Virus record (IMG/VR): IMGVR_UViG_3300017731_002846
Location: 1 to 64,000 of that record
Strand: one strand, 5' to 3'
Origin: a virus
Length of the DNA: 64,000 nt
Shown piece after piece: positions 22,766 through 46,162 of the stretch (its first letter is position 1; every line of letters starts with the position of its first letter). Under the pieces are notes generated by a model, which was given only the letters and a program-made list of their open reading frames with translations, was not told the DNA's origin and ran no database searches. The position numbers were made by a program, and so were the translations under genes.

Positions 22766-23548
22766 TTAATAATTAACAGTTTGGGCGGATACAACAAAAA
22801 ATGGATTTAATAAATTCTCTTTGTTATATAATAGAGACTCTTTAGTGTTAGCGACGACAACTTTAGCCCCGCTTTCTTCAGCGATTATTTGAGGAGCACA
22901 AGTATCCCATTCCATGGTTGGGCCAAATCTAGGGTAAATGTCAGCCTGACCCTCTGCCACCAAGCAAAACTTTAAGGAGCTTCCAACATTTATTGTCTTA
23001 ACTTCATAATTTTCTTTTAATTTATTAATAAAACTTTCAGTCTCTTTATTTGAATGAGACTTACTCGCAACCACATTTATCTTTTTATCTTGAAAGTTGT
23101 GTGAATAATTAGAATAAATCCTGTCGTCATTTTTAAATGAACCAACCCCTTGAATTCCGTAATAATGATCTTGTTTTTTTGGACAAGCGACATAACCAAA
23201 GACAGGCTCGTCACCTTTACAAAGAGCAATATTAATACAAAAATCATCACCACCTTTCACGAATTCTTTTGTGCCATCTATCGGATCAATAAGCCAATAA
23301 TAATCCCAATCTTTTCGATCTTTATAATCTATATGCTTATCCTCTTCAGATATAATATTTGACACTTTCGTGTTAGCAAATAGAAATTCTCTTATCCTTT
23401 CGTTGGAAAGAAGGTCGGCTTCGGTTAATGGGCTTTTATCGTCTTTTTGCAGGGTCTCAAAGCCGCTTGATTGTATCTCTACGACTTCCTTAGAAAGCTC
23501 GGTGCCAAAAGATAATAGCGAGTCGATAAATTTTTTATTTATTTGCAT
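22766..23548 (-). CDS. cysQ: 3'(2'),5'-bisphosphate nucleotidase (PAP phosphatase)
   Basis: KDDKSPLTEAD, ISEE, IDPIDGTKEF, GSSLKFC, YPRFGPTMEWDT. Confidence 0.95.
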   Translation of the reverse strand: MQINKKFIDSLLSFGTELSKEVVEIQSSGFETLQKDDKSPLTEADLLSNERIREFLFANTKVSNIISEEDKHIDYKDRKDWDYYWLIDPIDGTKEFVKGGDDFCINIALCKGDEPVFGYVACPKKQDHYYGIQGVGSFKNDDRIYSNYSHNFQDKKINVVASKSHSNKETESFINKLKENYEVKTINVGSSLKFCLVAEGQADIYPRFGPTMEWDTCAPQIIAEESGAKVVVANTKESLLYNKENLLNPFFVVSAQTVNY

Positions 23549-23551
23549 GAT

Positions 23552-23800
23552 TTACAGTAAGTTCATTTGATCGGGGTGATTAACATGCTCTGATTCTAGC
23601 ATATTTTCAGTAACCTTGTCAATATTTTTTTTGCCCCTCAACCAATTTCTTTGAGCCATGCGAACTACAAAGCGCATAAAAGCAAAAGCATAAACTTTAT
23701 TTAAAGATATAACTGCACCTGTATTATCAATAACTTTAAAAACCTTAGAGTCTTCGTCATACTCAAAGGAGGCATTCTTTAGTTCTTTTTTAATTATCAT
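23552..23800 (-). CDS. hypothetical protein
   Basis: ORF track; TTGACT-17-TATACT 7 nt upstream. Confidence 0.75.
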   Translation of the reverse strand: MIIKKELKNASFEYDEDSKVFKVIDNTGAVISLNKVYAFAFMRFVVRMAQRNWLRGKKNIDKVTENMLESEHVNHPDQMNLL

Positions 23801-23854
23801 CTTTAACAGTATAGAGAATAATTAAATAAAAGTCAATAAAAAAAACCAAACAAC

Positions 23855-23882
23855 AAAAAACCCCTTCGAATGAAGGGGTTTT
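23855..23882 (-). terminator. intrinsic terminator
   Basis: CCCCTTC-4-GAAGGGG stem flanked by A6 and T4. Confidence 0.85.
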
Positions 23883-23918
23883 GAGTTAGGTGAAATTTTT
23901 AACAAACAATCAAGGTTT

Positions 23919-26879
23919 CTAGCATGCCGCCCCCCAATTTGGCAACTCGCTTGACGAAATATTGACGGCATTTGTTGCAAAACCATTTGGTGCAGAAGTA
24001 ACCCCGCTTACACACCATTGACTTAAATCTCCAGGTGAGGCCCCCTCGTAGTTTTGGAACATATTTGCAAAAGCCCAGCCCTCTTGGTGAGCGCCTGAAA
24101 GATCCCAATTGGATATGTCTCCAATAGTCGAAAAGTCGGAAGATTGAAACACTTCTACGAAAGCCTCCGTATCAGATGTGTCCCAATTGGTCAAATCTAT
24201 GCTAGGTAGAGATGAAGATTTTTGACCAACATAAGCAAACATCTTAGCAAAAGAAGAAATCGCACTTAAGTTAGTCCATCCACTACCACTAAGATCTAGG
24301 GTTTCTAAATTTTCTAACCCCCAAAACATATAACTCATATATTTAAGTGATGTAGAAAATGTCCAATCACTCAAATTAATAGATTTTAATGTTGCCTTCA
24401 TTGAATTCCTTCGAGCGGTGTTGGAGGAATTGTGACCAACGTCAAACATCCCCCCAAAACTACTGCAACTAGAAACATCCCAACCACTTAAATTGATAGA
24501 TGAAAACCATCTACAATTTTTAAACATGGAAGCCATGGTTGTAACATTGCTTACGTCCCAATTACTTAAATCAAGATCGATGGTATTGGCGGTTGATCTA
24601 CCATTAAATAACTCCGCCATATTAGTTATAGCACTTACGTTCCACGATCCGATTTCTCCATAAGTTTCATCTGCGGCAGTTTTGTTAGCTACCCATGCAT
24701 CAATCGCCGTAATTAGTTGACTTTTGGATGTAAAGGCATAACTGGATTCATTTGGAAGCTCCTCGGGAGCATCTTGTCCGTCCTCTGATACTAAGTTTTC
24801 TGACTCCCAAGTCGCACGATAACTTTCATAGACATCACTCTTAAGCTCATCCGGCATAGCGCTGTCATCCGTACAAAACATCAAAGGAAACCCTATGGCA
24901 TCTTTAACAGTATCTCCGTAAGTTGTTAATACATTTTTAATTGAGTCAGGGGTAGATACAGATTGAACTGCGGCAGATAGTGAGGTTGTACCGCAAAGAA
25001 AATTGGTGACATTTTCGCATTTCGCGCTTTGGATTATCGTGCCAGGAAACAACTCACTATTAAATTCAGTATTATCCTTAAACATGTTTTTTATAGATAT
25101 CGCATTGCTTACGTCCCAATCCTTAACTGATTGGTTGTATACAGATGACTCAAACATGCCAGTAAAATCTATATTCTTTTCACTTTGAGTGAGGCCTTTA
25201 CCGAAATTACCAGCCCATTTAGGTAATGGTTTGTTAAAAGCGGTGCTCTTTTTAAACATGTTTTTGAACGATTTTGCTTTGCGAATATTCCAGCTATTGC
25301 TAGATTTGCTAAGAGCGCTGCCCTCAAACATGCTTTCGAAACTTTCTACATTAGAAGTGTTCCATCTTTGAGTTCCTGGCTTAGCCCAAACAGCTTGATC
25401 AAATAAAGAAGCATTACAAAACATTCCTTTCATGGTTGTTGCAGAGCTAGTGCTCCATTTACTAACTGATTTATTGAAAGAGCTCGCACCGCGAAACATA
25501 TTCTTAAATGAAACAACATTAGAAACGTTCCAGCCATTAACCCCGCTATTGAGTTTTTTTGCATTATGGAACATTCCCTCCATGTTTTGTGCGCTAGATA
25601 CATCAATTCCACCAAGGAATTGTTCGTAATCCGCATTGTTTTTAAACATGTTCTTGAAATTAGTAACACTAGAAGTGTCCCATTTTTCGGTTATGCCGGG
25701 TTTATTGAAAACAGTACCCTCTAGAAAGCTTTCGAGACTAGTAACTTGACTGACATCCCAATGCTTGAGCTTGCCCGGCTTGTAGGAAGAGTATTCAAGA
25801 CATCCAGTTAAGTCAGTTAAAGTCCCCCCAGTGGCTGCATTTAGCTTAAAAAAATGAACATAAGAAGAACAGCCAGACATAAAGCCAAGCATGTTTGTGA
25901 TTCCATTCAAGTCCATATTTGAAATAACACTACTAAACTTAAGCCTAGTGCATCCTGCAAACATATGGTCAATTGCACCAGAAAAAGACTGAGTGTGGCC
26001 AGTCATATTTTCGATTCGCCGCACACTATAATTTGCAAAATCTCCAACCCCATGAAATCCAAAATCATCGCCCAAATTGATCCTAAATGCTTTACGTTTA
26101 TTCATTGGATTGATACTATCTCCATTAAAGGTGAAAATATCATACGCAGATTCATCGACACTATAACGTTGGGTTAACATGCCGTCCCATTCATTTAGGG
26201 TAGGTGCAATGCTTGTGTCAACAGAATCGACAATTTCAAACTCAGAACTATGCGTAACCCCATCGATGTCATAAAAATATTGCAAAAACCCTGTTTGCGT
26301 CTTTGTGTCTAGCTCTCCGTCAGAGTAAACTGCATCTAAATGAGAATTAGATTCCAGCCGAAAATTAAAATCGTTAGATGAGATGCTGTATTTCTCACCT
26401 TTAACAAGTTTAATTCCATCAGAGCTGCGAAGCCCAATATAATCTCCGTTAAATTTAAATACTAAGTCAGTTTGATCCGTTGACATGCTCAGATCGCCTT
26501 TTTGATTATTCAAGAATACATTCGAGCCGTATCGAGAAACACTTTGCTTCGGTAACGCTAAATACGAATCATTATCATTCAATTCATTTTTCCATCCACC
26601 TGTTATTGAAACTGTTTTATTCCCTGTGGAGCTGTAATACTGAATTGTTTGTGAAGCATTATCTGTGTGGATGAGATTTACTTTTTTGTCCGAAATAACA
26701 ATGCCGTTATTGCTGTTGCTTGAATATGTAATGTTCTGTTGTCCGCCATCGCCCCAATTCACGGTCGCACTAAATACAGGATTACTATTAGTAATCCCAG
26801 GAGTGTCTGCTGCGCCAGCAACTACGAATGATACAATATCTTGTGGTGTGTAATAACCTTTGAATTCTAATTTAGCCAT
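23919..26879 (-). CDS. DUF285/BspA-like repeat surface protein
   Basis: Many WDVSxVTxxxxMF repeats in two blocks; N-terminal VNWGDG. Confidence 0.9.
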   Translation of the reverse strand: MAKLEFKGYYTPQDIVSFVVAGAADTPGITNSNPVFSATVNWGDGGQQNITYSSNSNNGIVISDKKVNLIHTDNASQTIQYYSSTGNKTVSITGGWKNELNDNDSYLALPKQSVSRYGSNVFLNNQKGDLSMSTDQTDLVFKFNGDYIGLRSSDGIKLVKGEKYSISSNDFNFRLESNSHLDAVYSDGELDTKTQTGFLQYFYDIDGVTHSSEFEIVDSVDTSIAPTLNEWDGMLTQRYSVDESAYDIFTFNGDSINPMNKRKAFRINLGDDFGFHGVGDFANYSVRRIENMTGHTQSFSGAIDHMFAGCTRLKFSSVISNMDLNGITNMLGFMSGCSSYVHFFKLNAATGGTLTDLTGCLEYSSYKPGKLKHWDVSQVTSLESFLEGTVFNKPGITEKWDTSSVTNFKNMFKNNADYEQFLGGIDVSSAQNMEGMFHNAKKLNSGVNGWNVSNVVSFKNMFRGASSFNKSVSKWSTSSATTMKGMFCNASLFDQAVWAKPGTQRWNTSNVESFESMFEGSALSKSSNSWNIRKAKSFKNMFKKSTAFNKPLPKWAGNFGKGLTQSEKNIDFTGMFESSVYNQSVKDWDVSNAISIKNMFKDNTEFNSELFPGTIIQSAKCENVTNFLCGTTSLSAAVQSVSTPDSIKNVLTTYGDTVKDAIGFPLMFCTDDSAMPDELKSDVYESYRATWESENLVSEDGQDAPEELPNESSYAFTSKSQLITAIDAWVANKTAADETYGEIGSWNVSAITNMAELFNGRSTANTIDLDLSNWDVSNVTTMASMFKNCRWFSSINLSGWDVSSCSSFGGMFDVGHNSSNTARRNSMKATLKSINLSDWTFSTSLKYMSYMFWGLENLETLDLSGSGWTNLSAISSFAKMFAYVGQKSSSLPSIDLTNWDTSDTEAFVEVFQSSDFSTIGDISNWDLSGAHQEGWAFANMFQNYEGASPGDLSQWCVSGVTSAPNGFATNAVNISSSELPNWGAAC

Positions 26880-27000: not shown

Positions 27001-27651
27001 TTAAGCAGGTTTTTCGAATTTATAACCAAACCTGATTATATCTGCGCGGTATTTTTGCGCAACTATTTCCATAGTTTCTTCGTCATAGTATTCGCTATAA
27101 TGTTTATGAGAAGTTCGATTTTTTATTGGAAGGGGTTTCCTGACAATCCCTAGTTTTTGGCACACTAGATCAAAGTCAGCTTGCAAGGTTTCGAACCTGC
27201 CGATGAAATCACAGCCAACTACTTGAGATGTTTGATCTGAAAACCAAACGCCATCTTCAGCAGTATGATTAATTAAATTGATAGACACAAATTCTTTAAA
27301 ATTACTTGGAATGACAAAATTCTCTGAGCATTTTATGCCATCGTGTTGCTGCATATATTTATATATAGACACTACTCGATCAAAAGGATTACGTACAAAT
27401 GCAAACTTAAAAAAAGAATTTATTAATTTTCTATCACCCTCACATGTATTATTCTTTAATACTTCGTAGCTTACATGATTAGGGTCGTCACCGTAATTTT
27501 CATACAAAAATTGAGGTTTTAAAGCATCAAAAACTTTGTTGAACTGGTGTTCTGCACATTCATCAGAGCAATCTAGTAATGAATATAGTATAGATGTAGA
27601 GCCCGTTTTAGGGACTCTAATAAAAACAGATTGTGTATTCCAAAAGATCAT
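27001..27651 (-). CDS. sulfotransferase (Sulfotransfer_2-like)
   Basis: 5'-PSB PKTGSTS; 3'-PB FVRNPFDRVVS; GRFE. Confidence 0.92.
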   Translation of the reverse strand: MIFWNTQSVFIRVPKTGSTSILYSLLDCSDECAEHQFNKVFDALKPQFLYENYGDDPNHVSYEVLKNNTCEGDRKLINSFFKFAFVRNPFDRVVSIYKYMQQHDGIKCSENFVIPSNFKEFVSINLINHTAEDGVWFSDQTSQVVGCDFIGRFETLQADFDLVCQKLGIVRKPLPIKNRTSHKHYSEYYDEETMEIVAQKYRADIIRFGYKFEKPA

Positions 27652-27654
27652 GAT

Positions 27655-28347
27655 TTAGTCTACAAATTTGTATCCAAAATACTCAATGTCTTTTGCATAT
27701 TTTTGAGCAACGATTTTACGTGTTTCATCATCATAATATTCAGTATAATGCCCATGCTTGTGTTTGTTTTTGTGTGGAAGTTGTTGTTTTGGAATTCCGA
27801 TTTTGTCGCAGACAACACCAAAGTCTTGTTGAAGGTTTTCGACTCGACCAACGAAGTCGAGTTTTTTGTGCGGAAACAGAGAGACTAAAGAAGCATAGTG
27901 GGAATTTGTTTTATCATCAGATACATCGCAATTAGCGATAACATTTTTGACAAAACTTTTAAAAGACATTGCTTCATCACCATGTGAGATATATTGTTCA
28001 ACACCGTATGTGCATGTTAATTTATCATAACTATCATGCCGACCAAATTTACTCCACCAGCAAGAATAAAGCCTTTCGTATGGATTCCTAACAAATGAAA
28101 ATTTAAATTGATTGTCACATTTAACATCATACATTTTAATATCCAATTTTTTAACACCATCAATATATTTCTTGGAAAGGGAATTGAGGGATTTATCTCC
28201 ACTGTGATGCTGCACAAAAGGATACGATGTGTCTTCTGTTATTTGGGTATGTTTGACTAACTGACTAAGAATTGTTGTGGTTGCGCACTTGGCAGTACGA
28301 AACCAAGTATAATTATTAATGTTAGATCGTGTGATTTTGTAACCCAT
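27655..28347 (-). CDS. sulfotransferase (Sulfotransfer_2-like)
   Basis: AKCATTT; FVRNPYERLYS. Confidence 0.9.
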   Translation of the reverse strand: MGYKITRSNINNYTWFRTAKCATTTILSQLVKHTQITEDTSYPFVQHHSGDKSLNSLSKKYIDGVKKLDIKMYDVKCDNQFKFSFVRNPYERLYSCWWSKFGRHDSYDKLTCTYGVEQYISHGDEAMSFKSFVKNVIANCDVSDDKTNSHYASLVSLFPHKKLDFVGRVENLQQDFGVVCDKIGIPKQQLPHKNKHKHGHYTEYYDDETRKIVAQKYAKDIEYFGYKFVD

Positions 28348-28350
28348 TTT

Positions 28351-28974
28351 TTATTCTCCAAATTTATAATTAAATCTTTCAATTGATTCTTTATACTTGT
28401 TGTATACAAGGTCAATTGTTTCGTCATCGTAATATTCTGTATAGTGTTTATGTTTAGTAGTATTTTGGATAAGTAAAGGTTTATACTTAATGCCTATCTC
28501 CCTGCATGCATGCATGTAATCATGCGGAAGATTTTCTACTTTACCAACAAAATTAAAATCTTCGGTTAGCCATGTTAGTTGAGACACTTGGTGCGTCCCG
28601 TGAAACCCAGGTTTAATTAAAAAATCTTTAAATGATTGAGTGCCCGCCTTAACCCTTAGGCAGTACTTATAATAATCAGGGGCACATAATTTAATTTTTT
28701 GACTATCAGCACATTTAAGCGCATAAAAATATTGAGAGACAATCCTTGAAAAAGGATTACGAACAAATGCAAACTTATAATATTCATTCCAGGCTAAACC
28801 TTCCTGGTTGAAATATTCCTCAATTTTATTGCCAGTGACATGATGATAAAAATAAGATTTTCGGTCACCAACGGCTTTTACATCAGCCCACTTCCATAAA
28901 CGGTGTCGCATGGCGGTAGTGGCATTTTTTGGTATCGAGATAAAAAGAAATTTTTTTCTGTGAGATAATATCAT
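28351..28974 (-). CDS. sulfotransferase (Sulfotransfer_2-like)
   Basis: PKNATTA; FVRNPFSRIVS. Confidence 0.9.
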   Translation of the reverse strand: MILSHRKKFLFISIPKNATTAMRHRLWKWADVKAVGDRKSYFYHHVTGNKIEEYFNQEGLAWNEYYKFAFVRNPFSRIVSQYFYALKCADSQKIKLCAPDYYKYCLRVKAGTQSFKDFLIKPGFHGTHQVSQLTWLTEDFNFVGKVENLPHDYMHACREIGIKYKPLLIQNTTKHKHYTEYYDDETIDLVYNKYKESIERFNYKFGE

Positions 28975-28995: not shown

Positions 28996-29625
28996 TTAAG
29001 CAGGTTTTTCGAATTTATAACCAAACCTGATTATATCTGCGCGGTATTTTTGCGCAACTATTTCTATAGTTTCTTCGTCATAGTATTCGCTATAATGTTT
29101 ATGAGAAGTTCGATTTTTTACAAGTAAAGGATTCCGTTTAATTCCAATTTTTTGACACACAAGATCAAAGTCTGCCTGTAAATTTTCGAACCTGCCGATG
29201 AAATCGCAGTCAACGACTTGAGATGCTTGGTCTGCAAGCCATATACCATTGCACTCTTTTTTTGTAAAGTTATATTTAGCAAAATTTTTAAAATTTGAAA
29301 TTTGAGCGCTAGAATCTATTTTTGCTATATATTTAAAAATGGAAACAGCTCGATCAAATGGGTTTCGAACAAATGCGAACTTAAAATAAGAATCTATTAA
29401 ATCCCTATTTTCGGGGGGGGCAGTATTTTTTAATGCCTCGTAAGTAACATGATTGGGGTCATCATGACTTTTTAGGTCCAGAAATTGAGGTTTTAAAGCG
29501 TCAAAAACTTTGTTGAACTCATTTCCAGAGCATTTTTCAGAGCAATCTAGTAATGAATATAGTATAGATGTAGAGCCCGTTTTAGGGACTCTAATAAAAA
29601 CAGATTGTGTATTCCAAAAGATCAT
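28996..29625 (-). CDS. sulfotransferase, close paralogue of 27001-27651
   Basis: PKTGSTS; FVRNPFDRAVS. Confidence 0.92.
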   Translation of the reverse strand: MIFWNTQSVFIRVPKTGSTSILYSLLDCSEKCSGNEFNKVFDALKPQFLDLKSHDDPNHVTYEALKNTAPPENRDLIDSYFKFAFVRNPFDRAVSIFKYIAKIDSSAQISNFKNFAKYNFTKKECNGIWLADQASQVVDCDFIGRFENLQADFDLVCQKIGIKRNPLLVKNRTSHKHYSEYYDEETIEIVAQKYRADIIRFGYKFEKPA

Positions 29626-29628: not shown

Positions 29629-30681
29629 TTATGATAAGAAATTCGATATAGTTTTATACAGTTTTTTGGCTCTTAATTTTATTTCAAAATCCAACTTGTC
29701 GGGCCAATCAGTAAAAAATTCAGAAGCAATAGAATAATTATGATTCAAGATATTTGACACATCTAAAGAATTCACAGAATCTAAGCAAAATTTATTAACT
29801 TCGCATTGATTATTAGGCTCAAGCTCCGCAATGTTAATTCCAAGAAAATCATGACTATTATTTGAGTCGTAAAAAATAGGCACAGAGAGAGAAAACACTG
29901 AATCGAATATCTTCTCTGTAAGATAATTATTCTCGATTGTGTTTTCAAGCGCAAGAAGAAATTTAGCATTTTTAAGGCACCAATCTAGTTTATTTCTATG
30001 AAAAGAATTTCCAGTATAAACAGTTTCTTCTGTCAAAGAGCCAAGTTCTTTGTTTCCTCTTCCGAAAAAATCGCAATTCAACTCTGGTATAGTAACAAGA
30101 TAGTCTGCTAATTTATCTTTTAATTCATTTAAACACAAGCCTGTAGGATTCTTAGAAAAGTCGAATTGATTTGGCTCAGGTGGGGTTTTACGATAATATA
30201 ATCCCGTAACATCATATGTTTTGTTTTTATAAATTTTATTAAAATTAATACGATTTAAAAGATTTAAGTAAAACTGATAATTTTTTAAGTAAACTTGGTC
30301 GGTAGTTAAAAAATAAGGTATATATTTATATTCAAAAATGTTAGTAAATTTATGATTGATAATATGGTAATGAAAATATAAACTATCATCATCTTTATCT
30401 CTGAAAATATAATCATCTTTGTCAGATCGAATAAAATTAGACCAGCTATTGTCCCAAACCGGTTCTTCGCTAACCAATATAGCCGGCTTATCTTGTTTTA
30501 CCGATAAAAATCCAGAACAATCTTTACGAATATCATTGATATAGGAAAACAAAATAAAATCCGCATCATCAGGGCAATCGACTTCACAAAAGAACTTACT
30601 TAATTCCCCTTGGTATGAAGCATAAGAAAATGGGCAAATTTTTGTACTATAGCCGTATTTATAATATTTAATTAAGCTCAT
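29629..30681 (-). CDS. GT10-like (alpha-1,3-fucosyltransferase family) glycosyltransferase
   Basis: KFLLALENT..NYLTEKIFDS...VPIFY; start revised to MSLIK. Confidence 0.75.
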   Translation of the reverse strand: MSLIKYYKYGYSTKICPFSYASYQGELSKFFCEVDCPDDADFILFSYINDIRKDCSGFLSVKQDKPAILVSEEPVWDNSWSNFIRSDKDDYIFRDKDDDSLYFHYHIINHKFTNIFEYKYIPYFLTTDQVYLKNYQFYLNLLNRINFNKIYKNKTYDVTGLYYRKTPPEPNQFDFSKNPTGLCLNELKDKLADYLVTIPELNCDFFGRGNKELGSLTEETVYTGNSFHRNKLDWCLKNAKFLLALENTIENNYLTEKIFDSVFSLSVPIFYDSNNSHDFLGINIAELEPNNQCEVNKFCLDSVNSLDVSNILNHNYSIASEFFTDWPDKLDFEIKLRAKKLYKTISNFLS

Positions 30682-31513
30682 GAATAGTATAAGTGTGCGC
30701 AGAATCCCGAACAATATCCCAAGACTTTCTTTTGGAGTCAAGTTGCCAAGGGTTTAATTCAGACCATATTCTATTCCTCTGTATCTCGTAAAACAAACGA
30801 ATATCAGGGCAATTTTCTGGTGGGCTCATTTTATTTAAATGCTCAACAATTTTCATGGCGTCAAATTTACCCTTGCCAGAAAGAGAAGAAAGGTCAGGAT
30901 TTAATAAGTCATCCAAATCTAATAATGATTGATTGGTATAACGAGCTTCTTGGGTAGACTCTATATGATTAAATAAATCATAATTAAAGTCTAAGCCTTC
31001 CAATTCAAGAGCTGATAAGCGGTTGTACAAATCAGAGTCATCCCAGCCATAAGTTGTGATTCCTTCATGATAGCCATTGACCCGCCAAAAATCTTCAGTC
31101 TTGCAGTAAAGTTGTCCATTTAGATGGAGTTCATTTTCATTTCTGGCAATTTTCCAGTTGCCACGAAAAAAAGAAAATTCAGGCAAAATGTGAAAACTCA
31201 AAAAAGTTGGGTCAAGTAGGATGTCTGCATCTAATTTCAAAAGATGGCCGTATTTAACGAAAGAAATTGCCAGATTAAATGCATGACTTAAAATCCATTT
31301 TGGCTGATTGTTAACTCTCAGTAATTTAATATTTTTTGATGCGCAATTGCGGCATAAATCAGAATATTGAATTGGCACATCAGAAGACCAATCAAGTACA
31401 ATGATTTCACTCACTTCATCTAATTGGCTCCATGACTTGATCGAGAGTAGAAGATTGTCAGTTCGATTCATCGAACAGGTTACAAGAGAACATCCTTTCT
31501 TAAAGTTTTGCAT
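30668..31513 (-). CDS. GT2/GT7-like glycosyltransferase
   Basis: LLKLDAD (DxD); FWRVNGYHE..YGWDDSDL resembles the GT7 C-terminal motif. Confidence 0.85.
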   Translation of the reverse strand: MQNFKKGCSLVTCSMNRTDNLLLSIKSWSQLDEVSEIIVLDWSSDVPIQYSDLCRNCASKNIKLLRVNNQPKWILSHAFNLAISFVKYGHLLKLDADILLDPTFLSFHILPEFSFFRGNWKIARNENELHLNGQLYCKTEDFWRVNGYHEGITTYGWDDSDLYNRLSALELEGLDFNYDLFNHIESTQEARYTNQSLLDLDDLLNPDLSSLSGKGKFDAMKIVEHLNKMSPPENCPDIRLFYEIQRNRIWSELNPWQLDSKRKSWDIVRDSAHTYTIHELN

Positions 31514-34997: not shown

Positions 34998-35090
34998 TTA
35001 TGTATATTCTTTTAGCATTTTTTCTCTAAACCCTGATCCAGTTTTTGGCGGATTTAGGCATACGAATTTATATTTGTGCGATAATATCAT
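34998..35090 (-). pseudogene. 30-aa sulfotransferase N-terminal fragment
   Basis: Manual translation MILSHKYKFVCLNPPKTGSGFREKMLKEYT*. Confidence 0.75.
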
Positions 35091-36688: not shown

Positions 36689-37522
36689 TTAAGATGAGAA
36701 TCTATTTTTTTGATGTAAAATTACTAAATCTCTATTTTTTTGGCAAATATAACTTTCTTTTAGCTTGCTATCTACACCCATAGACATATTAGAAATTAAT
36801 TTTATATCTTTATAACCAGGTTTATATTTATTTATGTTTTCTTCTGAGGATTCGATGGTATAATAGATACCAATGTCGTAATTAACGAAATGGTCATGAA
36901 CACCTTCTTTAACCAGCCGTTTTACTTTAGACAGAGATTCGTTAAGTAATTCTTTGGATAAATCACAGTTTTTATAAATAGCCACCCCATTTAAATGATC
37001 TTTCCATTCGCAATTTTCTGGAAGCTCAACGATGCCTTCATAGCAACTTCCAGCTATCAAAAAATCTTCTTGCTCACAATACTTATACAAACGATCAAAC
37101 CAGTGATATTTGACGGGTCTAGTGTCAGACTCTAAGATCAAAAAGTTTTCATAATCATTCTGAAAAAGAAAGTCTAAGCCTTGAAAAAAAGAATTATTGG
37201 GCCCAGAAGATAGCCCCAAAATAGGAAATCCATGCTCTTCGTATAATTCATAAGAATGGTCAGCTCGAAAATAAAGATTTTCTTGCTCGCTAAGATCTAA
37301 AGAATGTATGTAGATTTTATTTATATATTTTAAAGATTCATATTTTAATAAATCTTCATATCCTGTAGGATCACCTTGATCAAAAACAAAAAATAAATCA
37401 AATTTATATTTTGCCGAAGCTCCTAGCCCAATATAACCCTTTAAACAATTATGGATATATCCTTCTTGGTATTCTTTTTGGGAAGATAGGAATGCTATAG
37501 CTAATTTATTTGTATACTGCAT
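36689..37522 (-). CDS. putative glycosyltransferase
   Basis: SGPNNSF, ILESD, HLNGVAIY; genomic context. Confidence 0.5.
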   Translation of the reverse strand: MQYTNKLAIAFLSSQKEYQEGYIHNCLKGYIGLGASAKYKFDLFFVFDQGDPTGYEDLLKYESLKYINKIYIHSLDLSEQENLYFRADHSYELYEEHGFPILGLSSGPNNSFFQGLDFLFQNDYENFLILESDTRPVKYHWFDRLYKYCEQEDFLIAGSCYEGIVELPENCEWKDHLNGVAIYKNCDLSKELLNESLSKVKRLVKEGVHDHFVNYDIGIYYTIESSEENINKYKPGYKDIKLISNMSMGVDSKLKESYICQKNRDLVILHQKNRFSS

Positions 37523-37656: not shown

Positions 37657-38160
37657 TTAAACAAGTCTGTCGGTTATAATTTGATGGGCAAATTTTTTAT
37701 CATGCCAATCATGGACTTGAACTTTGTCGCCTGACATAGATAAGTCTTTATAATGGGCAAAGAAATTTTTTGAAATCTGAAGGAAACTCTCTTCTAGGTC
37801 TTTTAAATTAGAATATTTTCTTGTATAAAAGCTTGGGACACCTACCAATTTATAATCTTTTTCTCCCTCGTCATCCATGTCTAATACCCCTAAAATTTTG
37901 GCCTCTACAACAGTAGCTCTTTTGATTGGCTCGGGGCTGATAACTAAAATATCAAGAGGATCTCCATCTTCGCATAAAGTACCAGGAACGAAGCCGTAAC
38001 TTGCTGGGTAAACCATTGCGGAGTTTAGGCACCTATCATACATGAAAACCCCAAGTTCTCCATCGTACTCATACTTATTTTTTGAGCCTTCCTCAATCTC
38101 AATAACAGCATTAACTATTTGGGGCGATTTTTTGTGTGTTGGTAATTTATATAAGTTCAT
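37657..38160 (-). CDS. ppa: family I inorganic pyrophosphatase
   Basis: KNKYEYD, YGFVPGT, DGDPLD, GEKDYK. Confidence 0.95.
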   Translation of the reverse strand: MNLYKLPTHKKSPQIVNAVIEIEEGSKNKYEYDGELGVFMYDRCLNSAMVYPASYGFVPGTLCEDGDPLDILVISPEPIKRATVVEAKILGVLDMDDEGEKDYKLVGVPSFYTRKYSNLKDLEESFLQISKNFFAHYKDLSMSGDKVQVHDWHDKKFAHQIITDRLV

Positions 38161-38555
38161 TTTATTCCAGTTAAATCAGATGAAGAGCGAATTTTGTCGC
38201 CAAGCCCGTCAATAACTTGCGTTCCGTTTTCTTTGCAAATTTTGTATTCAGGTATTTCTCCGTTACTACGGTCACCACCATTGGCGAAAATATCGGGTTT
38301 AAGTAAATCAAGGGTCTTGCATACAGTTTTGTCGTCGTCAATAGACATAACAGCTTCATCAACGCCTTTAATTTGAGAGACAATCATTAAACGATCATCT
38401 TCGCACATAAAAGACCTTCCCTTTTTTAGGGCGGCCTGCCTGTCATTATTTACAATAACAATTAAATAATCGCCAAGCTCTCTCGCCATTTTAATATATT
38501 CCAAATGCCCGATATGTATCGGGTCAAAGTACCCACTAATTGCAATTTTTTTCAT
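38157..38555 (-). CDS. cytidylyltransferase (HIGH family)
   Basis: SGYFDPIHIGH, FANGGDR, KIRSSS. Confidence 0.92.
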   Translation of the reverse strand: MKKIAISGYFDPIHIGHLEYIKMARELGDYLIVIVNNDRQAALKKGRSFMCEDDRLMIVSQIKGVDEAVMSIDDDKTVCKTLDLLKPDIFANGGDRSNGEIPEYKICKENGTQVIDGLGDKIRSSSDLTGIK

Positions 38556-38929
38556 ATAATGCTTTTTTGAATTTGTCTAAATATATAAGCCATGCATTCA
38601 CTATCCGTCATCTTTAATGCCCTGTAAATTTCTAAATCTATAACTTGCTCGACATCCAATTCATTGAAAGAGATTAACTCATCTTTTTTATCTTCATACA
38701 GACATACATGAATGATCTCGTTTGTTCCAGCAGGTTGAGTTACATAAATTTTATATATATCCATGTAACTTTTAGGGAATTTTAATAGTTTTTTATATAA
38801 TTTACCATGAGCAATAGTTAATTCAATAACTTCAGACTCTGTAAGCCCTTCATCTTTATAGTAGTTTTTATACAAATGATTAAACATTGATTTAAATGTA
38901 ACTTTCTGAACTAGATCTCTTAATGTCAT
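38552..38929 (-). CDS. hypothetical protein
   Basis: ORF track. Confidence 0.7.
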   Translation of the reverse strand: MTLRDLVQKVTFKSMFNHLYKNYYKDEGLTESEVIELTIAHGKLYKKLLKFPKSYMDIYKIYVTQPAGTNEIIHVCLYEDKKDELISFNELDVEQVIDLEIYRALKMTDSECMAYIFRQIQKSII

Positions 38930-42264: not shown

Positions 42265-42270
42265 ATAAAT

Positions 42271-44123: not shown

Positions 44124-44323
44124 TATTTTAATTTAATATTGTTGTTTTCACAAAAAGATACCGCATAACCAGTTTTAAAAGAGAACTTATCAATAAAAAT
44201 ACAAGCTCCAATGATTAACGTTGACCTGAGGATATCTAAATTAGACTCATAGAATAATAAAAAAAATATTATTATGTATGGGCAAAATTTATTTAAGGAG
44301 TAATTCACTATTATATTATTCAT
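44123..44323 (-). CDS. small membrane protein
   Basis: ORF track. Confidence 0.6.
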   Translation of the reverse strand: MNNIIVNYSLNKFCPYIIIFFLLFYESNLDILRSTLIIGACIFIDKFSFKTGYAVSFCENNNIKLK

Positions 44324-44751
44324 TATCTTCCTGAACTACCAAAGCCACCTTGGCCACGAGTGCTAAAACTTAATACATCAGTTTCGATTAATTGAACCGC
44401 CGGCATGCGGATGAAGACAATTTGACCAACCCTGTCCCCTATTTTATAACAAGTATTGCTCTCGTCTAAAGAAAAACGTAACTTAAGTTCTCCCCTATAA
44501 CCGCAATCTATAACACCAACAGAGTTTCTTAAGAAGTGTTTTGTTCCACTAATACTAGAGCGTGGAAAAATAAATCCGGCATATCCTTTGGGTATTTCCA
44601 ATGAAATACCTGTGCAGATTTCCACGAACACACCAGCAGACCCAGAAGGGTGAGTAACCGCAGTTGCATATAAGTCAAAGCCAGCGTCCTTAGGGTTGGC
44701 TTGAGTAGGAACCTTAGCCGCAGGGTTTAATCTTTGAAATTTTACTTTCAT
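44323..44751 (-). CDS. dut: dUTPase
   Basis: AGFDL, PRSS, GVIDCGYRGE, RGQGGFGSSG. Confidence 0.96.
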   Translation of the reverse strand: MKVKFQRLNPAAKVPTQANPKDAGFDLYATAVTHPSGSAGVFVEICTGISLEIPKGYAGFIFPRSSISGTKHFLRNSVGVIDCGYRGELKLRFSLDESNTCYKIGDRVGQIVFIRMPAVQLIETDVLSFSTRGQGGFGSSGR

Positions 44752-44963
44752 TAATAAACTTTATGTGGGGAGTTGGTCTGGATTATTGCGACTTTATTAA
44801 GAGTGGTCTTGTCCCACCTCTTTAACATGTCGCAAAGCCTCAAAGCACGGCTTTCTGCCTCTGATTTAACACGATAATTAGTGTCTTCAATTCTGCGACC
44901 ATCTCTGGTTACAACATAAAAGCTATCACTATCTTTTGATACATTTCTTCGGATTAATTTCAT
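44751..44963 (-). CDS. hypothetical protein
   Basis: ORF track; TTGACA-17-TAAACT upstream. Confidence 0.7.
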   Translation of the reverse strand: MKLIRRNVSKDSDSFYVVTRDGRRIEDTNYRVKSEAESRALRLCDMLKRWDKTTLNKVAIIQTNSPHKVY

Positions 44964-45053
44964 ATGGAGAACAGTTTACCAGAAAAACTAAGAACTGTCA
45001 AGTTTTTAAAAAAAAAAATTCGATTTATAGGATAAATACTGTAATATAAAAAT

Positions 45054-45860
45054 ATGACAAAGAGAAAAATTCTTATTATGGGCTTACCAGGATCAGGCAA
45101 AACTACTTTAGCTGAAATCTTAGTAAGAAAATTAAATGCCGCATGGTTTAATGCAGATGCAGTAAGACAAGAGATCCACAAGGACTTAGGTTTCACTGCA
45201 GAAGACAGGCTCGAGCATTCAACTCGCATGGGCAAACTATGTGATTGGGCAAAACTCGGGGGGTCTTATGTAATCGCAGACTTTGTATGCCCAACTAAAG
45301 AAGCAAGGGAAGCTTTTAATCCTGACTTCGTCATCTGGGTAGATAGAATTCAAGAAGGTAGATATGCAGATACAAACAAAATGTTTGAAAAACCAGAAAA
45401 TGCTGACGTTATATTAAAAGAAGGAACTCCTGACGAATGGGCAGAGCAAGCACTCGAAGGTTTATATAAAACAGAAGCATGGGACGATCAAGCCCCAACC
45501 GCATTACTCATAGGCCGGTATCAACCTTTTCATATCGGACACAAAACATTAGTAGCAGAGTCTGTTAAAAGAACAGGTCAATGCTGTATAGCTCTAAGAA
45601 ACGTGGCAGGTATAGATGAGAAAAATCCATACAATTTCGAGCAAGTTAAAAAAGAAATCGAAGCCGCTTGTGTTGAGTTTGGAGATAAAATAAAAATCGT
45701 TGAACTGCCAAACATTACAGATATATTTTATGGACGCGGAGTTGGTTACAATATCGAGCAACTTGAATTAAGCAAAGAACTGCAAGCAGTTTCGGCAACT
45801 AAAATCCGTGCAGGAGAAATCGGACAAGATGGTAAACCATTAGGCAAGAGGCCCGAATAA
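45054..45860 (+). CDS. cysC: adenylyl-sulfate kinase-like domain fused to a HIGH-family nucleotidyltransferase
   Basis: GLPGSGKTT, NADAVR, LGFTAEDR; C-terminal GRYQPFHIGH...SATKIR. Confidence 0.82.
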   Translation: MTKRKILIMGLPGSGKTTLAEILVRKLNAAWFNADAVRQEIHKDLGFTAEDRLEHSTRMGKLCDWAKLGGSYVIADFVCPTKEAREAFNPDFVIWVDRIQEGRYADTNKMFEKPENADVILKEGTPDEWAEQALEGLYKTEAWDDQAPTALLIGRYQPFHIGHKTLVAESVKRTGQCCIALRNVAGIDEKNPYNFEQVKKEIEAACVEFGDKIKIVELPNITDIFYGRGVGYNIEQLELSKELQAVSATKIRAGEIGQDGKPLGKRPE

Positions 45861-46162
45861 TGGCATACGTAGTAACTGAAAAATGCGTGGACTGTAAGTT
45901 TACTAGCTGCGTTTCGGTATGCCCTGTAGATGCTTTTCACGAAACCCCAGATCGTTTATACATCAATCCAGAGTCCTGCATTGACTGCAATGCCTGTATG
46001 GATGAATGCCCTGTCGAAGCCATATACCCAGACATGGATGTGCCTGAGGAATTACAAGATTGGATCGAGCTAAACGAGCAAGCAGAGGAATACCCTCAAT
46101 TGTTTGGGGAGAAAGAGCCTCTCAAGGGCCCTAAATGCGTTGACCCACAAGCGGACGAATAA
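45860..46162 (+). CDS. dicluster (FdxA-like) ferredoxin
   Basis: CVDC...CVSVCPVD; CIDCNACMDECPVEAI. Confidence 0.93.
   Translation: MAYVVTEKCVDCKFTSCVSVCPVDAFHETPDRLYINPESCIDCNACMDECPVEAIYPDMDVPEELQDWIELNEQAEEYPQLFGEKEPLKGPKCVDPQADE

What the first reader, a model, noticed from the sequence alone, without database searches (positions are those of the whole stretch)
22766..46162. Phage-encoded PAPS-dependent sulfated-glycan pathway
Seen: within about 11.5 kb (27001-38555) there are 7 full sulfotransferases with intact PAPS-binding motifs and 1 fragment, GT10-, GT7- and GT31-like plus 3 further GT-like ORFs, ppa and a cytidylyltransferase. Elsewhere in the window are CysQ, a CysC-nucleotidyltransferase fusion, a PMI cupin, a TagD-like enzyme and a SAM methyltransferase. 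Established: sulfotransferases use PAPS, CysC makes PAPS from APS, pyrophosphatase pulls APS and nucleotide-sugar synthesis forward, and CysQ removes the inhibitory product PAP. Inference: the phage carries donor supply, transfer and by-product removal for a multiply sulfated, possibly fucosylated glycan, rather than isolated sulfur AMGs. No flippase, polymerase or export gene is visible, which favours cytoplasmic acceptors such as virion proteins. If the host is a marine Verrucomicrobium (some are known degraders of sulfated polysaccharides), a sulfated coat might mimic host food or shield the virion.
Basis: partly seen in the sequence, partly recalled or inferred. Interest (0 to 1): 0.88.

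Follow-up and report, generated by a model that had tools for sequence, protein, structure and literature searches.

The report
Phage sulfated-glycan gene islands
An uncultured marine tailed phage gives about a third of this 106-kb contig to soluble enzymes that should build a fucose-containing, methylated and heavily sulfated sugar chain, along with enzymes that supply and recycle the sulfate donor PAPS; this makes it an unusually elaborate virus-encoded glycan system, but no activity or target has been shown.

Summary
Window 27001-38555 holds seven Sulfotransfer_2 genes with both PAPS-binding motifs and a 30-codon remnant. It also holds GT10-, GT7C/GT2- and Fringe/GT31-like genes, a newly shown GT-A-fold gene, ppa and a small cytidylyltransferase. 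CysQ, an APS-kinase/NMNAT-like fusion, a PMI cupin, a TagD/RfaE-like enzyme and a SAM methyltransferase lie elsewhere in the window.

The window is the first 64 kb of a 105.9-kb IMG/VR phage contig. Outside it lies a second, 20-kb island with four more sulfotransferases, at least seven glycosyltransferases and two methyltransferases. GDP-fucose synthase and a sugar dehydrogenase lie at the contig end.

Across 21 related phage records:
- Sulfotransferases, ppa and GDP-fucose synthase travel together.
- CysQ occurs only in records with 5-11 sulfotransferases.
- None encodes ATP sulfurylase, CysD/CysH, a priming transferase, Wzx or a ThyA-type enzyme.

The pathway reading is therefore well supported. 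The acceptor and the biological role are not established. I favour virion proteins over host envelope glycan.

A DUF1501 gene points weakly to a PVC (Verrucomicrobiota-like) host. This scan has already noted the same kind of system in at least ten other genomes. I found no paper that describes it.

The parts
22766..23548 (-). CysQ-type 3'(2'),5'-bisphosphate nucleotidase, which removes PAP
   Evidence: Inositol_P E 4e-50. TIGR01331 scores 228.3 bits against a cut-off of 228.8.
23919..26879 (-). 986-aa DUF285 repeat protein directly downstream of the sulfotransferase array; a neighbour, not shown to belong
   Evidence: PF03382, six stretches, E 5e-89. Among relatives it is clearly present only in the nearest one, so it is not linked to sulfotransferase content.
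27001..27651 (-). Sulfotransferase ST1
   Evidence: PF03567 65.9 bits. Motifs PKTGSTS and RNPFDRVVS. 75% identical to ST4.
27655..28347 (-). Sulfotransferase ST2
   Evidence: PF03567 61.7 bits. Motifs AKCATT (Lys kept) and RNPYERLYS.
28351..28974 (-). Sulfotransferase ST3
   Evidence: PF03567 48.3 bits. Both motifs present.
28996..29625 (-). Sulfotransferase ST4, a recent duplicate of ST1
   Evidence: PF03567 64.2 bits. phmmer E 4e-101 to ST1.
29629..30741 (-). GT10-like (fucosyltransferase family) glycosyltransferase
   Evidence: PF00852 29.4 bits against a cut-off of 23.9.
30668..31513 (-). GT-A glycosyltransferase with a Glyco_transf_7C motif
   Evidence: PF02709 31.1 bits against a cut-off of 23. 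Paralogue of the GT2 gene at contig 82664-83473.
31529..32224 (-). Fringe/GT31-like glycosyltransferase
   Evidence: PF02434 41.3 bits and PF01762 23.3 bits.
32264..32887 (-). Sulfotransferase ST5
   Evidence: PF03567 67.8 bits. Both motifs present.
32841..33623 (-). Unassigned 260-aa ORF inside the island
   Evidence: No Pfam, PHROG or PDB-sequence match.
33625..34383 (-). Unassigned 252-aa ORF with a weak GT32 lead
   Evidence: No Pfam match. The nearest named Atlas cluster is Gb3_synth, score 0.93, which is a lead only.
34380..34991 (-). Unassigned 203-aa ORF
   Evidence: No Pfam, PHROG or PDB-sequence match.
35001..35090 (-). Sulfotransferase remnant: 30 codons with the PKTGS motif, then a stop
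   Evidence: Matches positions 1-26 of the sulfotransferase HMM, E 0.007. Translation.
35106..35753 (-). Sulfotransferase ST6
   Evidence: PF03567 34.5 bits. Both motifs present.
35737..36651 (-). Divergent sulfotransferase ST7 with a roughly 70-residue insert
   Evidence: PF03567 23.7 bits against a cut-off of 22. Motifs AKNAGT and RDPFARSIS.
36689..37522 (-). GT-A-fold glycosyltransferase, like GT8-type retaining enzymes, with a conserved ExD motif
   Evidence: AlphaFold2 model, pLDDT 95.3. Foldseek matches glycogenin, XXYLT1 and LARGE1 at E about 1e-7. VIA Z 16.6 to LARGE1 (226 residues aligned, rmsd 3.7), Z 14.5 to GlyE and Z 13.8 to LgtC. E131 and D133 are invariant.
37657..38160 (-). Inorganic pyrophosphatase (Ppa)
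   Evidence: PF00719 E 4e-47. NF002317 156 bits.
38157..38555 (-). Small HxGH nucleotidyltransferase, RfaE-II/TagD-like
   Evidence: PF01467 62.9 bits. TIGR02199 76 bits and TIGR01518 45 bits, both below their cut-offs.
38552..38929 (-). 125-aa ORF resembling the N-terminus of the NodZ-like gene at contig 84645-85508
   Evidence: phmmer E 3e-4. No family match above its cut-off.
45054..45860 (+). Fusion of a lid-less APS-kinase domain (residues 1-145) and an NMNAT-like HxGH nucleotidyltransferase (residues 150-268)
   Evidence: PF01583 51.2 bits. The top 23 PDB sequence hits are all APS kinases. Foldseek and VIA place APS kinases first, Z 17-18 against 15.6 for gluconate kinase. The C-terminal domain matches NadM-type NMNAT at E 2e-7.
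45860..46162 (+). 2x[4Fe-4S] ferredoxin coupled to the fusion gene; its role is unexplained
   Evidence: Fer4 families. Absent after the fusion gene in the nearest relative.
14617..14973 (-). Stand-alone mannose-6-phosphate-isomerase-type cupin
   Evidence: PF01050 110 bits. Matches the C-terminal part of TIGR01479.
7689..8123 (-). Second small cytidylyl/adenylyl-transferase (TagD/RfaE-II-like)
   Evidence: PF01467 56 bits. TIGR02199 71.7 bits and TIGR01518 63.7 bits, both below their cut-offs.
18244..18774 (-). Class I SAM methyltransferase; substrate unknown
   Evidence: Methyltransf_11 E 4.5e-10.

Best explanation
The window carries one of two gene islands with which an uncultured marine myovirus builds a multiply sulfated, fucose-containing, partly methylated heteroglycan in the cytoplasm of the infected cell. 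The phage has a DnaE-type polymerase, and its relatives are 150-220 kb.

Proposed steps:
1. APS comes from the host's ATP sulfurylase, or possibly from the NMNAT-like domain fused to the phage kinase.
2. The phage APS-kinase domain turns APS into PAPS.
3. Soluble phage glycosyltransferases assemble the chain. These are GT10-, GT7C/GT2-, GT31- and GT8-like here, and GT17, GT77, NodZ, GT2 and GT92-like in island 2. They draw on GDP-fucose and other nucleotide sugars made partly by phage enzymes: Fcl, a GME-like epimerase, a sugar dehydrogenase, the PMI cupin and two small nucleotidyltransferases.
4. Eleven anciently diverged sulfotransferases add sulfate at different positions.
5. CysQ hydrolyses the inhibitory product PAP.
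6. Ppa removes the pyrophosphate released by the sulfate and sugar activation steps.

Shown here: the family assignments, the motifs, the gene linkage, and the co-occurrence across relatives.

Inferred: every enzymatic step, the product and the acceptor.

My odds: about 0.8 that the genes serve PAPS-dependent sulfation of a phage-made glycan. Given that, about 0.45 for phage virion proteins as acceptor, 0.35 for a host envelope glycan built on host lipid carriers, and 0.2 for something else.
For: Sulfotransferases:
- The contig has 11 PF03567 genes, seven of them in the window. All carry both PAPS-binding motifs.
- On a tree they scatter among the sulfotransferases of related phages instead of clustering by genome, except the ST1/ST4 pair. 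They are therefore old, distinct paralogues.

Glycosyltransferases and sugar supply:
- At least 11 glycosyltransferase genes score above Pfam cut-offs or have a GT-A fold.
- GDP-fucose synthase scores 440 bits; there are also a sugar dehydrogenase and epimerases and two Methyltransf_24 genes.

Kinase domain:
- It is closest to solved APS kinases by sequence and by fold.

Co-occurrence over 21 related records:
- 17 of 18 close relatives have 1-11 PF03567 genes.
- Of the four records without a clear PF03567 gene, G016 and G021 carry Sulfotransfer_1/3 genes above cut-off, G020 has only a sub-threshold hit and G019 has none.
- ppa is in 14 of 17 sulfotransferase-positive records and in 0 of 4 others.
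- Fcl is in 14 of 17 and in 0 of 4.
- CysQ is in six records, all with 5-11 sulfotransferases.
- CysQ and ppa lie less than 1 kb apart in G002, G003 and G005. In G000, G004 and G017 the island sits between them.

Cultured and deposited phages:
- Only five records of 50,697 match ST5, and four of those five also match the kinase, which hits 16 records in all.
- Ralstonia phage phiRSL1 has an APS kinase, glycosyltransferases, an NDP-sugar pyrophosphorylase and a sulfotransferase as one cluster.

Absent families:
- No PF01747 or PF01507 in 19 records.
- No Bac_transf, Wzx or Glycos_transf_4 in 16 records.
- No polytopic membrane protein in the islands.
Against: - No biochemical or structural datum exists for any of these proteins.
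- The kinase domain lacks the canonical lid, has NAD in place of the DGD motif, and falls far below the TIGR00455 cut-off (46.6 against 138.7 bits).
- The kinase fusion occurs without a confident sulfotransferase in Salvovirus phages and in RsoM2USA.
- Two complete relatives with 9-10 sulfotransferases lack CysQ.
- The co-occurrence counts are not corrected for shared ancestry, and the CysQ-positive records are the nearest relatives.
- Several glycosyltransferase assignments rest on scores just above cut-off.
- Three island ORFs remain unassigned.
- Nothing in the sequence identifies an acceptor. The contig is only about 68% complete.
Confidence: 0.6

Rival explanations
1. The same enzymes decorate a host envelope glycan (LPS O-chain, capsule or exopolysaccharide) while it is assembled on the host's own lipid carrier at the cytoplasmic face, and the host's own transporter exports it. 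The changed surface would block superinfection or stop progeny from re-adsorbing to debris. Seroconverting phages and the hyaluronan made by chloroviruses work in a comparable way.
For: - Soluble glycosyltransferases and sulfotransferases can act on lipid-linked intermediates.
- The closest cellular sulfotransferase homologues sit in many bacterial phyla.
- The phage would need no exporter of its own, so the absence of one does not exclude this reading.
- Slow-growing marine hosts have long latent periods (my own knowledge).
Against: - No priming transferase, flippase, polymerase or membrane-bound enzyme is encoded in 12 near-complete relatives.
- About 30 kb of a lytic-looking genome is a large investment for a transient surface change.
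- Island content varies strongly between close relatives, which would require matching host pathways each time.
Confidence: 0.25
2. cysC, cysQ and ppa are ordinary sulfur-assimilation auxiliary genes that boost host cysteine synthesis. This is how viral cysC has been read (bioRxiv 10.1101/2021.01.05.425418). On this view they are unrelated to the sulfotransferases.
For: The cited study lists cysC and cysQ among viral organosulfur genes, finds cysC mostly in marine and freshwater viruses, and reports expression of cysC by a 210-kb lake virus.
Against: - No relative encodes CysH, CysD or ATP sulfurylase.
- The kinase gene co-occurs with sulfotransferases in this clade and in unrelated phages.
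- CysQ is confined to sulfotransferase-rich genomes and flanks the island.
- That paper does not mention sulfotransferases.
Confidence: 0.05
3. The sulfotransferases act on small molecules, lipids or host signalling compounds, for example to disarm a defence signal or to make sulfolipids. The glycosyltransferases would serve an unrelated purpose.
For: Sulfotransfer_2 members have varied acceptors, and nothing here fixes the acceptor. A paper on OM43 phages states that the function of phage sulfotransferases is unclear (PMC10580990).
Against: - Sulfotransferases and glycosyltransferases are interleaved with overlapping or near-abutting reading frames in both islands.
- Sulfotransferase count tracks the presence of GDP-fucose synthase.
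- Eleven distinct paralogues fit a multi-site polymer better than a single small target.
Confidence: 0.07
4. The glycosyltransferases hypermodify phage DNA with glycans, as in T4-like and other phages, and the sulfotransferases extend that modification.
For: - Virus-encoded glycosyltransferases that hypermodify DNA are known (Pyle et al. 2024, as cited in PMC12619734).
- A dNMP kinase, a dUTPase and a C5 DNA methylase lie near island 1.
- In phiRSL1 the cluster abuts a thymidylate-synthase-family gene.
Against: - No ThyA-family hydroxymethylase in 18 records, 14 of them at least 90% complete.
- The glycosyltransferase families present (GT10, GT17, GT31, GT77, GT92, NodZ) are glycan-elongating types.
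- A fucose pathway and two O-methyltransferases fit a glycan, not a base modification.
Confidence: 0.03

Closest known systems
Virus-encoded virion glycosylation: chlorovirus PBCV-1 capsid glycans and Mimivirus fibril glycans (my own knowledge), and mycobacteriophage capsid and tail-tube glycosylation (Freeman et al. 2023, as cited in PMC12619734)
   Same: The virus carries its own soluble glycosyltransferases and sugar-nucleotide enzymes. It has no lipid-carrier or export machinery. The gene content varies between relatives.
   Different: None of those systems is known to me to include sulfotransferases or a PAPS supply and recycling set. Phage examples use one or two glycosyltransferases, against at least 11 glycosyltransferases and 11 sulfotransferases here. 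Virion attachment is not shown here.
Ralstonia phage phiRSL1 ORF232-238 cluster (NC_010811.2)
   Same: One cluster holds an APS-kinase homologue, three glycosyltransferases, an NDP-sugar pyrophosphorylase, a nucleotidyltransferase and a Sulfotransfer_2 gene.
   Different: It has a single sulfotransferase. The kinase match covers only the N-terminal domain. It belongs to an unrelated jumbo-phage lineage. It is annotated only, and I found no functional study.
Rhizobial Nod-factor decoration: NodPQ PAPS synthesis with the NodH/NoeE sulfotransferases, NodZ fucosyltransferase and NoeI methyltransferase (my own knowledge)
   Same: A dedicated PAPS supply is coupled to sulfotransferases acting on a glycoconjugate. 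NodZ-type fucosylation, sulfation and O-methylation are combined.
   Different: NodPQ is a CysDN/CysC-type enzyme, whereas the fusion here has an NMNAT-like domain. The acceptor there is a lipo-chitooligosaccharide. That system is bacterial, not viral, and has one or two sulfotransferases.
Viral cysC/cysQ 'organosulfur' auxiliary metabolic genes (bioRxiv 10.1101/2021.01.05.425418)
   Same: The same gene families occur on large marine and freshwater phages.
   Different: They are read there as assimilatory sulfate reduction. Here no CysH, CysD or Sat accompanies them, and they track sulfotransferase arrays.
Metazoan bifunctional PAPS synthase (PAPSS1/2; PDB 1x6v, 2ofx)
   Same: The domain order is kinase, then nucleotidyltransferase-superfamily domain. 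The kinase domain of the phage protein is its nearest solved relative.
   Different: The phage C-terminal domain is about 115 residues and carries NMNAT-type GRYQPFHxGH and ISAT motifs. It has no PF01747 match. Sulfurylase activity is untested.

Membership tests
Sulfotransfer_2 (PF03567) PAPS-dependent sulfotransferases | Match to the family profile above the curated cut-off | tested here: met
   Seven window genes score 23.7-67.8 bits against a cut-off of 22. Four more lie outside the window, one of them marginal at 22.1 bits.
Sulfotransfer_2 (PF03567) PAPS-dependent sulfotransferases | 5'-phosphosulfate-binding loop with a catalytic Lys (PKxGxT/S) and the 3'-phosphate-binding motif RxPxxRxxS | tested here: met
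   Alignment of all 11 copies. The Lys is present in every copy; Pro is replaced by Ala in ST2 and ST7 and by Asn in ST9. RNP/RDP/RHP-xx-R/K-xx-S is present in every copy.
Sulfotransfer_2 (PF03567) PAPS-dependent sulfotransferases | Sulfuryl transfer from PAPS to an acceptor | not testable with these tools
   Needs an enzyme assay. No solved structure is close enough by sequence.
CysQ 3'(2'),5'-bisphosphate nucleotidase (TIGR01331) | Equivalog-level profile score | tested here: inconclusive
   228.3 bits against a cut-off of 228.8. The Inositol_P superfamily is clearly met at E 4e-50. CysQ models are the best-scoring by far.
APS kinase (CysC; PF01583, TIGR00455) | P-loop plus the APS-binding segment (DLGFS..DR..E and F-I/V-S/C-P) and an APS-kinase fold | tested here: met
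   GLPGSGKT, DLGFTAEDRLE and DFVCP are conserved. PF01583 scores 51.2 bits against 21.1. The top PDB hits are all APS kinases, with VIA Z 17-18 at 28-30% identity.
APS kinase (CysC; PF01583, TIGR00455) | Full-length equivalog score, the canonical DGD motif and the lid region | tested here: not met
   TIGR00455 scores 46.6 bits against 138.7, and the match covers residues 6-87 only. DGD is replaced by an invariant NAD, and the lid is shortened. It is therefore an APS-kinase relative, not a proven CysC.
ATP sulfurylase (Sat; PF01747), for the fused C-terminal domain | Profile match and the QxRNPxHxxH / GRD motifs | tested here: not met
   No PF01747 match in the contig or in 18 relatives. The motifs are of the NMNAT type: GRYQPFHxGH and ISAT. 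This lowers membership. It does not rule out that the domain adenylylates sulfate.
Wzx/Wzy- or ABC-dependent bacterial polysaccharide gene cluster | Initiating phosphoglycosyl transferase (Bac_transf or Glycos_transf_4) and a Wzx flippase | tested here: not met
   0 of 16 records, 12 of them at least 90% complete. No polytopic membrane ORF in the islands.
GT-A fold glycosyltransferase (GT8-like), for 36689-37522 | GT-A fold over the whole length with a conserved acidic D/ExD metal and donor motif | tested here: met
   pLDDT 95.3. Foldseek E about 1e-7 to glycogenin, XXYLT1 and LARGE1. VIA Z 16.6, 14.5 and 13.8 over residues 1-277. E131 and D133 are invariant in 36 homologues. No CAZy family assignment by sequence.
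Virus-encoded virion glycosylation system | Glycan covalently attached to structural proteins by viral enzymes | not testable with these tools
   Needs virions. Only indirect support: soluble enzymes and no export genes.

The most novel reading that the evidence does not exclude
The phage is self-sufficient for activated sulfate. The roughly 115-residue NMNAT-like domain fused to the APS kinase would be an undescribed, minimal ATP sulfurylase, making the 268-residue protein a miniature PAPS synthase. The sulfotransferase and glycosyltransferase islands would then coat the virion with a fucoidan-like sulfated glycan, which either baits the polysaccharide-capture machinery of a Verrucomicrobiota-type host or shields the particle.
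Probability: 0.2. Interest if true: 0.92.

Novelty: new variant of a known kind. Interest (0 to 1): 0.72.

Why it matters
If the reading holds, it would matter in four ways:
- A widespread group of large marine phages would make sulfated glycans, a chemistry not documented for any phage in the papers I could search. One paper states that the role of phage sulfotransferases is unclear (PMC10580990).
- The abundant viral cysC genes of marine and freshwater viromes would need re-reading as sulfation-donor supply instead of sulfur assimilation.
- It would add a virus-driven source of sulfated, fucosylated polymer to marine carbon and sulfur cycling.
- It would offer a large set of small, soluble, diverse sulfotransferases and glycosyltransferases for glyco-engineering.

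The fused kinase-nucleotidyltransferase could also reveal a new way of activating sulfate.

Tried and rejected
- **Near-identity search.** Megablast of island 1 against INPHARED phages found nothing. There is no close cultured relative. The DnaE-type polymerase is only about 30% identical to any deposited phage.
- **tRNAs for host prediction.** ARAGORN found none, and it also missed the tmRNA that Rfam finds.
- **Host from the tmRNA.** The phage tmRNA is unlike the chromosomal tmRNA of the MAG that holds a related phage contig.
- **Host or donor from sulfotransferase homologues.** The best cellular matches are 28-38% identical and scattered over many phyla. The sulfotransferase tree is poorly resolved, and phage and cellular sequences intermix, so I claim no origin.
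- **DUF285 protein as acceptor by co-variation.** It is present clearly only in the nearest relative, so I rejected it as a clade-wide partner.
- **Unassigned ORFs.** PDB sequence searches for the sulfotransferase profile and for three unassigned ORFs gave nothing. PHROGs gave nothing for five island-1 ORFs and one weak glycosyltransferase hit among five island-2 ORFs.
- **Literature.** Searches for phage or virus-encoded sulfotransferases found no functional study. The 'moraphage' paper (PMC12619734) describes a different lineage with a family B polymerase and does not mention sulfotransferases.
- **Transcription.** One marine metatranscriptome run held only short contigs, 90-95% alike, over some island genes. 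These probably come from relatives, and DNA carry-over cannot be excluded. I do not count this as evidence of transcription.
- **GTGTA promoter motif** noted by other readers. I saw it upstream of the DUF285 gene, ST7, a fibre gene and the RNR gene, but I ran no statistical test.
- **Ferredoxin beside the fusion gene.** It is absent from the nearest relative, so it is not a conserved partner.

Full report
**What the window is.**
The window is bases 1-64000 of a 105,904-bp linear IMG/VR virus contig that CheckV rates about 68% complete. It is a tailed phage. It encodes:
- a tail sheath (53849-56545) and a fibre protein with T4-like distal-fibre C-termini (56555-58054);
- a ClpB/ClpC-like ATPase and a DnaE-type DNA polymerase with a separate exonuclease;
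- further along the contig, a DnaB helicase, a primase, a RecA-like protein and both RNR subunits.

G+C is 31-39% through most of the window, and almost all genes are on the minus strand. No cultured phage is close: megablast found nothing, and the polymerase is about 30% identical to its best deposited match. The island sequence recurs nearly unchanged in seawater, marine and viral-fraction metagenomes from several studies. Long contigs from three of those studies match with no differences. The phage is therefore marine and the assembly is sound.

- Seven genes between 27001 and 36651 match Sulfotransfer_2 above the Pfam cut-off.
- An alignment of these with four further copies outside the window shows the 5'-phosphosulfate loop Lys and the RNPxxRxxS 3'-phosphate motif in every copy.
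- A 30-codon remnant with PKTGS followed by a stop lies at 35001-35090.
- GT10-like, Glyco_transf_7C/GT2-like and Fringe/GT31-like genes lie between the sulfotransferases.
- ppa and a small HxGH nucleotidyltransferase close the island.
- Four island ORFs had no family match. I modelled 36689-37522 from 36 homologues (pLDDT 95.3). It has a GT-A fold over its whole length. The nearest solved structures are retaining enzymes of the GT8 type: Foldseek E about 1e-7 to glycogenin, XXYLT1 and LARGE1, and VIA Z 16.6 to LARGE1, 14.5 to GlyE and 13.8 to LgtC. It has an invariant ExD motif.
- A few of its 259 homologues are fused to GT10, GT7C or GT2 domains.
- 33625-34383 has only a language-model lead to GT32. 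32841-33623 and 34380-34991 remain unassigned.
- CysQ scores 228.3 bits against a TIGR01331 cut-off of 228.8.
- The PMI cupin, the TagD/RfaE-II-like enzyme and a class I SAM methyltransferase are all present.
- The methyltransferase at 41116-42318 is a C5 DNA methylase and does not belong to the pathway.

**The system is larger than the finding.**
Contig positions 75830-96348 form a second island. It holds:
- a GDP-mannose-epimerase/Fcl-like enzyme and two Methyltransf_24 genes;
- four more sulfotransferases;
- GT17, two clear GT77 (Nucleotid_trans), two NodZ-like, GT2 and GT92-like genes, plus weaker candidates.

At the contig end lie a nucleotide-sugar dehydrogenase, an epimerase/dehydratase and a GDP-L-fucose synthase that scores 440 bits. 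Together these genes take roughly 37 kb of the 106-kb contig. That figure is my own sum of the coordinates.

**The donor-supply gene.**
The 268-residue product of 45054-45860 has two domains.
- *N-terminal domain.* It matches APS kinases first, both by sequence (the top 23 PDB hits, E about 1e-12) and by fold (Foldseek; VIA Z 17-18 at 28-30% identity, against 15.6 for gluconate kinase and 12-13 for shikimate kinases). It keeps the P-loop and the DLGF(S/T)xxDR and DF(V)CP segments. It has NAD in place of DGD and a shortened lid, and it fails the TIGR00455 equivalog cut-off.
- *C-terminal domain.* It carries NMNAT-type GRYQPFHxGH and ISAT motifs (E 2e-7 to NadM-type enzymes). It has no ATP-sulfurylase profile match.

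More than 5,700 homologues exist in metagenomes, many on contigs of 150-200 kb. Whether the small domain adenylylates sulfate is an open and attractive question that I could not test.

I took 21 IMG/VR records of at least 100 kb that carry the fusion gene and searched them whole.
- *PF03567.* It is present in 17 of the 18 close relatives, with 1-11 copies.
- *Records without a clear PF03567 gene.* There are four. G016 and G021 carry Sulfotransfer_1/3 genes above cut-off. G020 has only a sub-threshold hit. G019 has none beyond a sub-threshold PF03567 hit.
- *ppa.* It is in 14 of 17 PF03567-positive records and in none of the four others.
- *Fcl.* A strong match is in 14 of 17 and in none of the four others.
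- *CysQ.* It is in six records, all with 5-11 sulfotransferases.
- *Hand arithmetic.* The chance that all 14 ppa-positive records fall among the 17 is about 0.006. The chance that all six CysQ-positive records fall among the ten richest is about 0.004. These figures ignore shared ancestry, and the CysQ-positive records are the nearest relatives.
- *Gene order.* CysQ and ppa lie less than 1 kb apart in G002, G003 and G005. In this phage, G004 and G017, an 11-14 kb sulfotransferase/glycosyltransferase island lies between them (coordinates). That spot therefore acts as an insertion point for such cassettes.

Evidence from unrelated lineages is cleaner.
- Only five of 50,697 deposited phage records match ST5. 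Four of those five are also among the 16 records that match the kinase.
- In phiRSL1 the kinase, three glycosyltransferases, two sugar-nucleotide enzymes and the sulfotransferase form one cluster.
- The exceptions are the Salvovirus phages and RsoM2USA, which have the kinase but no confident sulfotransferase.

**What the relatives lack.**
- No ATP sulfurylase (PF01747) and no PAPS-reductase/CysD family (PF01507) in 19 records, 15 of them at least 90% complete. This argues against the published assimilatory reading of viral cysC, because the only phage-encoded PAPS users are the sulfotransferases.
- No Bac_transf, Glycos_transf_4 or Wzx in 16 records, and no polytopic membrane protein in the islands. 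The glycan is therefore built by soluble enzymes, either on a cytoplasmic acceptor or on a host lipid carrier.
- No ThyA-family enzyme in 18 records. This weakens the DNA-hypermodification rival.

**Nature of the sulfotransferase array.**
On a FastTree of 137 sequences, this phage's ten alignable sulfotransferases are scattered: nine label changes, the same as for shuffled labels. Each lies nearer to a sulfotransferase of a related phage than to its own paralogues. The exception is ST1 and ST4, which are 75% identical. One metagenome contig joins 27562 to 29537 through that repeat, which indicates copy-number variation in the population. The array is thus a set of old, distinct enzymes, as expected for sulfation at several positions, with some ongoing turnover. 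The remnant at 35001-35090 fits the same picture.

**Host.**
The evidence is thin.
- A DUF1501 gene (contig 66243-67550, E 2e-106) has no counterpart in 150 sampled genomes of one gammaproteobacterial class. The single match was on a phage contig.
- The same gene has 62 matches in a Verrucomicrobiales MAG (best 50% identity over the full length), 100 in a Planctomycetaceae MAG and 19 in an Opitutae MAG. It has none in a Flavobacteriaceae genome or a Lentisphaerae genome. This points to the PVC group as donor and perhaps as host.
- Against this, a 210-kb contig in a 'Cellvibrionales' MAG is a phage of this clade: its fusion gene is 73-85% identical, it has five sulfotransferases, and it carries its own tmRNA. 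It was binned with a 1.3-Mb contig of similar G+C. The tmRNAs of that phage contig and that chromosome are unalike.

**How it most likely works.**
- Host, or possibly phage, sulfate adenylylation gives APS.
- The phage kinase gives PAPS.
- Phage glycosyltransferases build a fucose-containing chain from nucleotide sugars that are partly phage-made.
- Eleven sulfotransferases and two O-methyltransferases decorate the chain.
- CysQ clears PAP, and Ppa pulls the pyrophosphate-releasing steps.

All enzymatic steps are inferred from family membership. I put about 0.8 on PAPS-dependent sulfation of a phage-made glycan. Given that, I put about 0.45 on virion proteins as acceptor, 0.35 on host envelope glycan and 0.2 on something else.

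**Comparison with what is known.**
- Virus-encoded glycosylation of virions is established for chloroviruses, mimiviruses and mycobacteriophages. This system works like those in using soluble viral enzymes without export genes. It adds a sulfation layer and a donor cycle, and it is far larger than any phage example I found.
- The logic of a dedicated PAPS supply plus a sulfotransferase, a NodZ fucosyltransferase and a methyltransferase recalls rhizobial Nod-factor decoration (my own knowledge).
- phiRSL1 carries a one-sulfotransferase miniature of the same module.
- I found no paper on the function of phage sulfotransferases. One paper says the function is unclear.
- This scan has already flagged the same kind of system in at least ten other genomes, with similar follow-up readings. 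Those are unchecked notes and I did not use them as evidence.

**Verdict.**
The pathway-level interpretation is well supported by comparative genomics. The acceptor, the product and the ecological role are open. I class it as a new variant of a known kind, with interest 0.72.

Noticed in passing
window 46393-46756 (-): A full-length phage-encoded tmRNA (Rfam RF00023, 114.9 bits) that ARAGORN missed. A related phage contig carries a similar one. Both are unlike the chromosomal tmRNA of the MAG they were binned with.
   Followed up: partly
L001:3243-4550 (contig 66243-67550, -): A DUF1501 gene (E 2e-106). The family is hugely expanded in Verrucomicrobiales and Planctomycetaceae MAGs (best match 50% identity). 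It was not found in 150 genomes of a gammaproteobacterial class. It is conserved at 64% identity in a related phage. This is a possible host or donor clue, and a sulfatase-superfamily enzyme in a sulfation-rich phage.
   Followed up: partly
window 21338-21874 (-): A phage-encoded sigma-70-family protein (Sigma70_r2, E 1.6e-10). It may read a phage-specific promoter class such as the GTGTA motif that other readers noted.
   Followed up: no
window 27001-27651 and 28996-29625: ST1 and ST4 are 75% identical duplicates. One metagenome contig joins 27562 to 29537 through them, which points to copy-number variants of the array in natural populations.
   Followed up: partly
L086/L089 (JAYQMT010000004.1, 210,818 bp, labelled Cellvibrionales MAG): This contig of a bacterial MAG is a phage of the same clade: fusion gene 73-85% identical with frameshifts, five sulfotransferases, DUF1501 and its own tmRNA. 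It is either mis-binned or a host association.
   Followed up: partly
window 45860-46162 (+): A 2x[4Fe-4S] ferredoxin immediately follows the kinase fusion on the only plus-strand cassette. It is missing from that position in the nearest relative (L043). Its role is unexplained.
   Followed up: partly
window 13022-14041 and 46793-47917 (-): Two UvdE-like UV-damage endonuclease paralogues (phmmer E 6e-46 to each other).
   Followed up: no
L084 (Xylella phage Bacata, NC_052973.1): In Salvovirus phages the kinase fusion sits beside COG3236/NADAR-like, MazG-like and cysteine-dioxygenase-annotated genes. Only a marginal (13.6-bit) sulfotransferase-like ORF lies at the genome end. The fusion may therefore have another role there.
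   Followed up: partly
L003:3175-4488 (contig 99175-100488, -): A subtilase (Peptidase_S8, E 1.5e-56) with a Pro/Glu-rich repeat tail.
   Followed up: no
L002:5131-5961 (contig 87131-87961, -): A GHKL-type ATPase domain gene (HATPase_c_3) sits in the middle of glycan island 2.
   Followed up: no
L001:1773-2936 (contig 64773-65936, -): The only ORF on the contig with several predicted membrane segments (about four). It has no family match and lies outside the islands.
   Followed up: no
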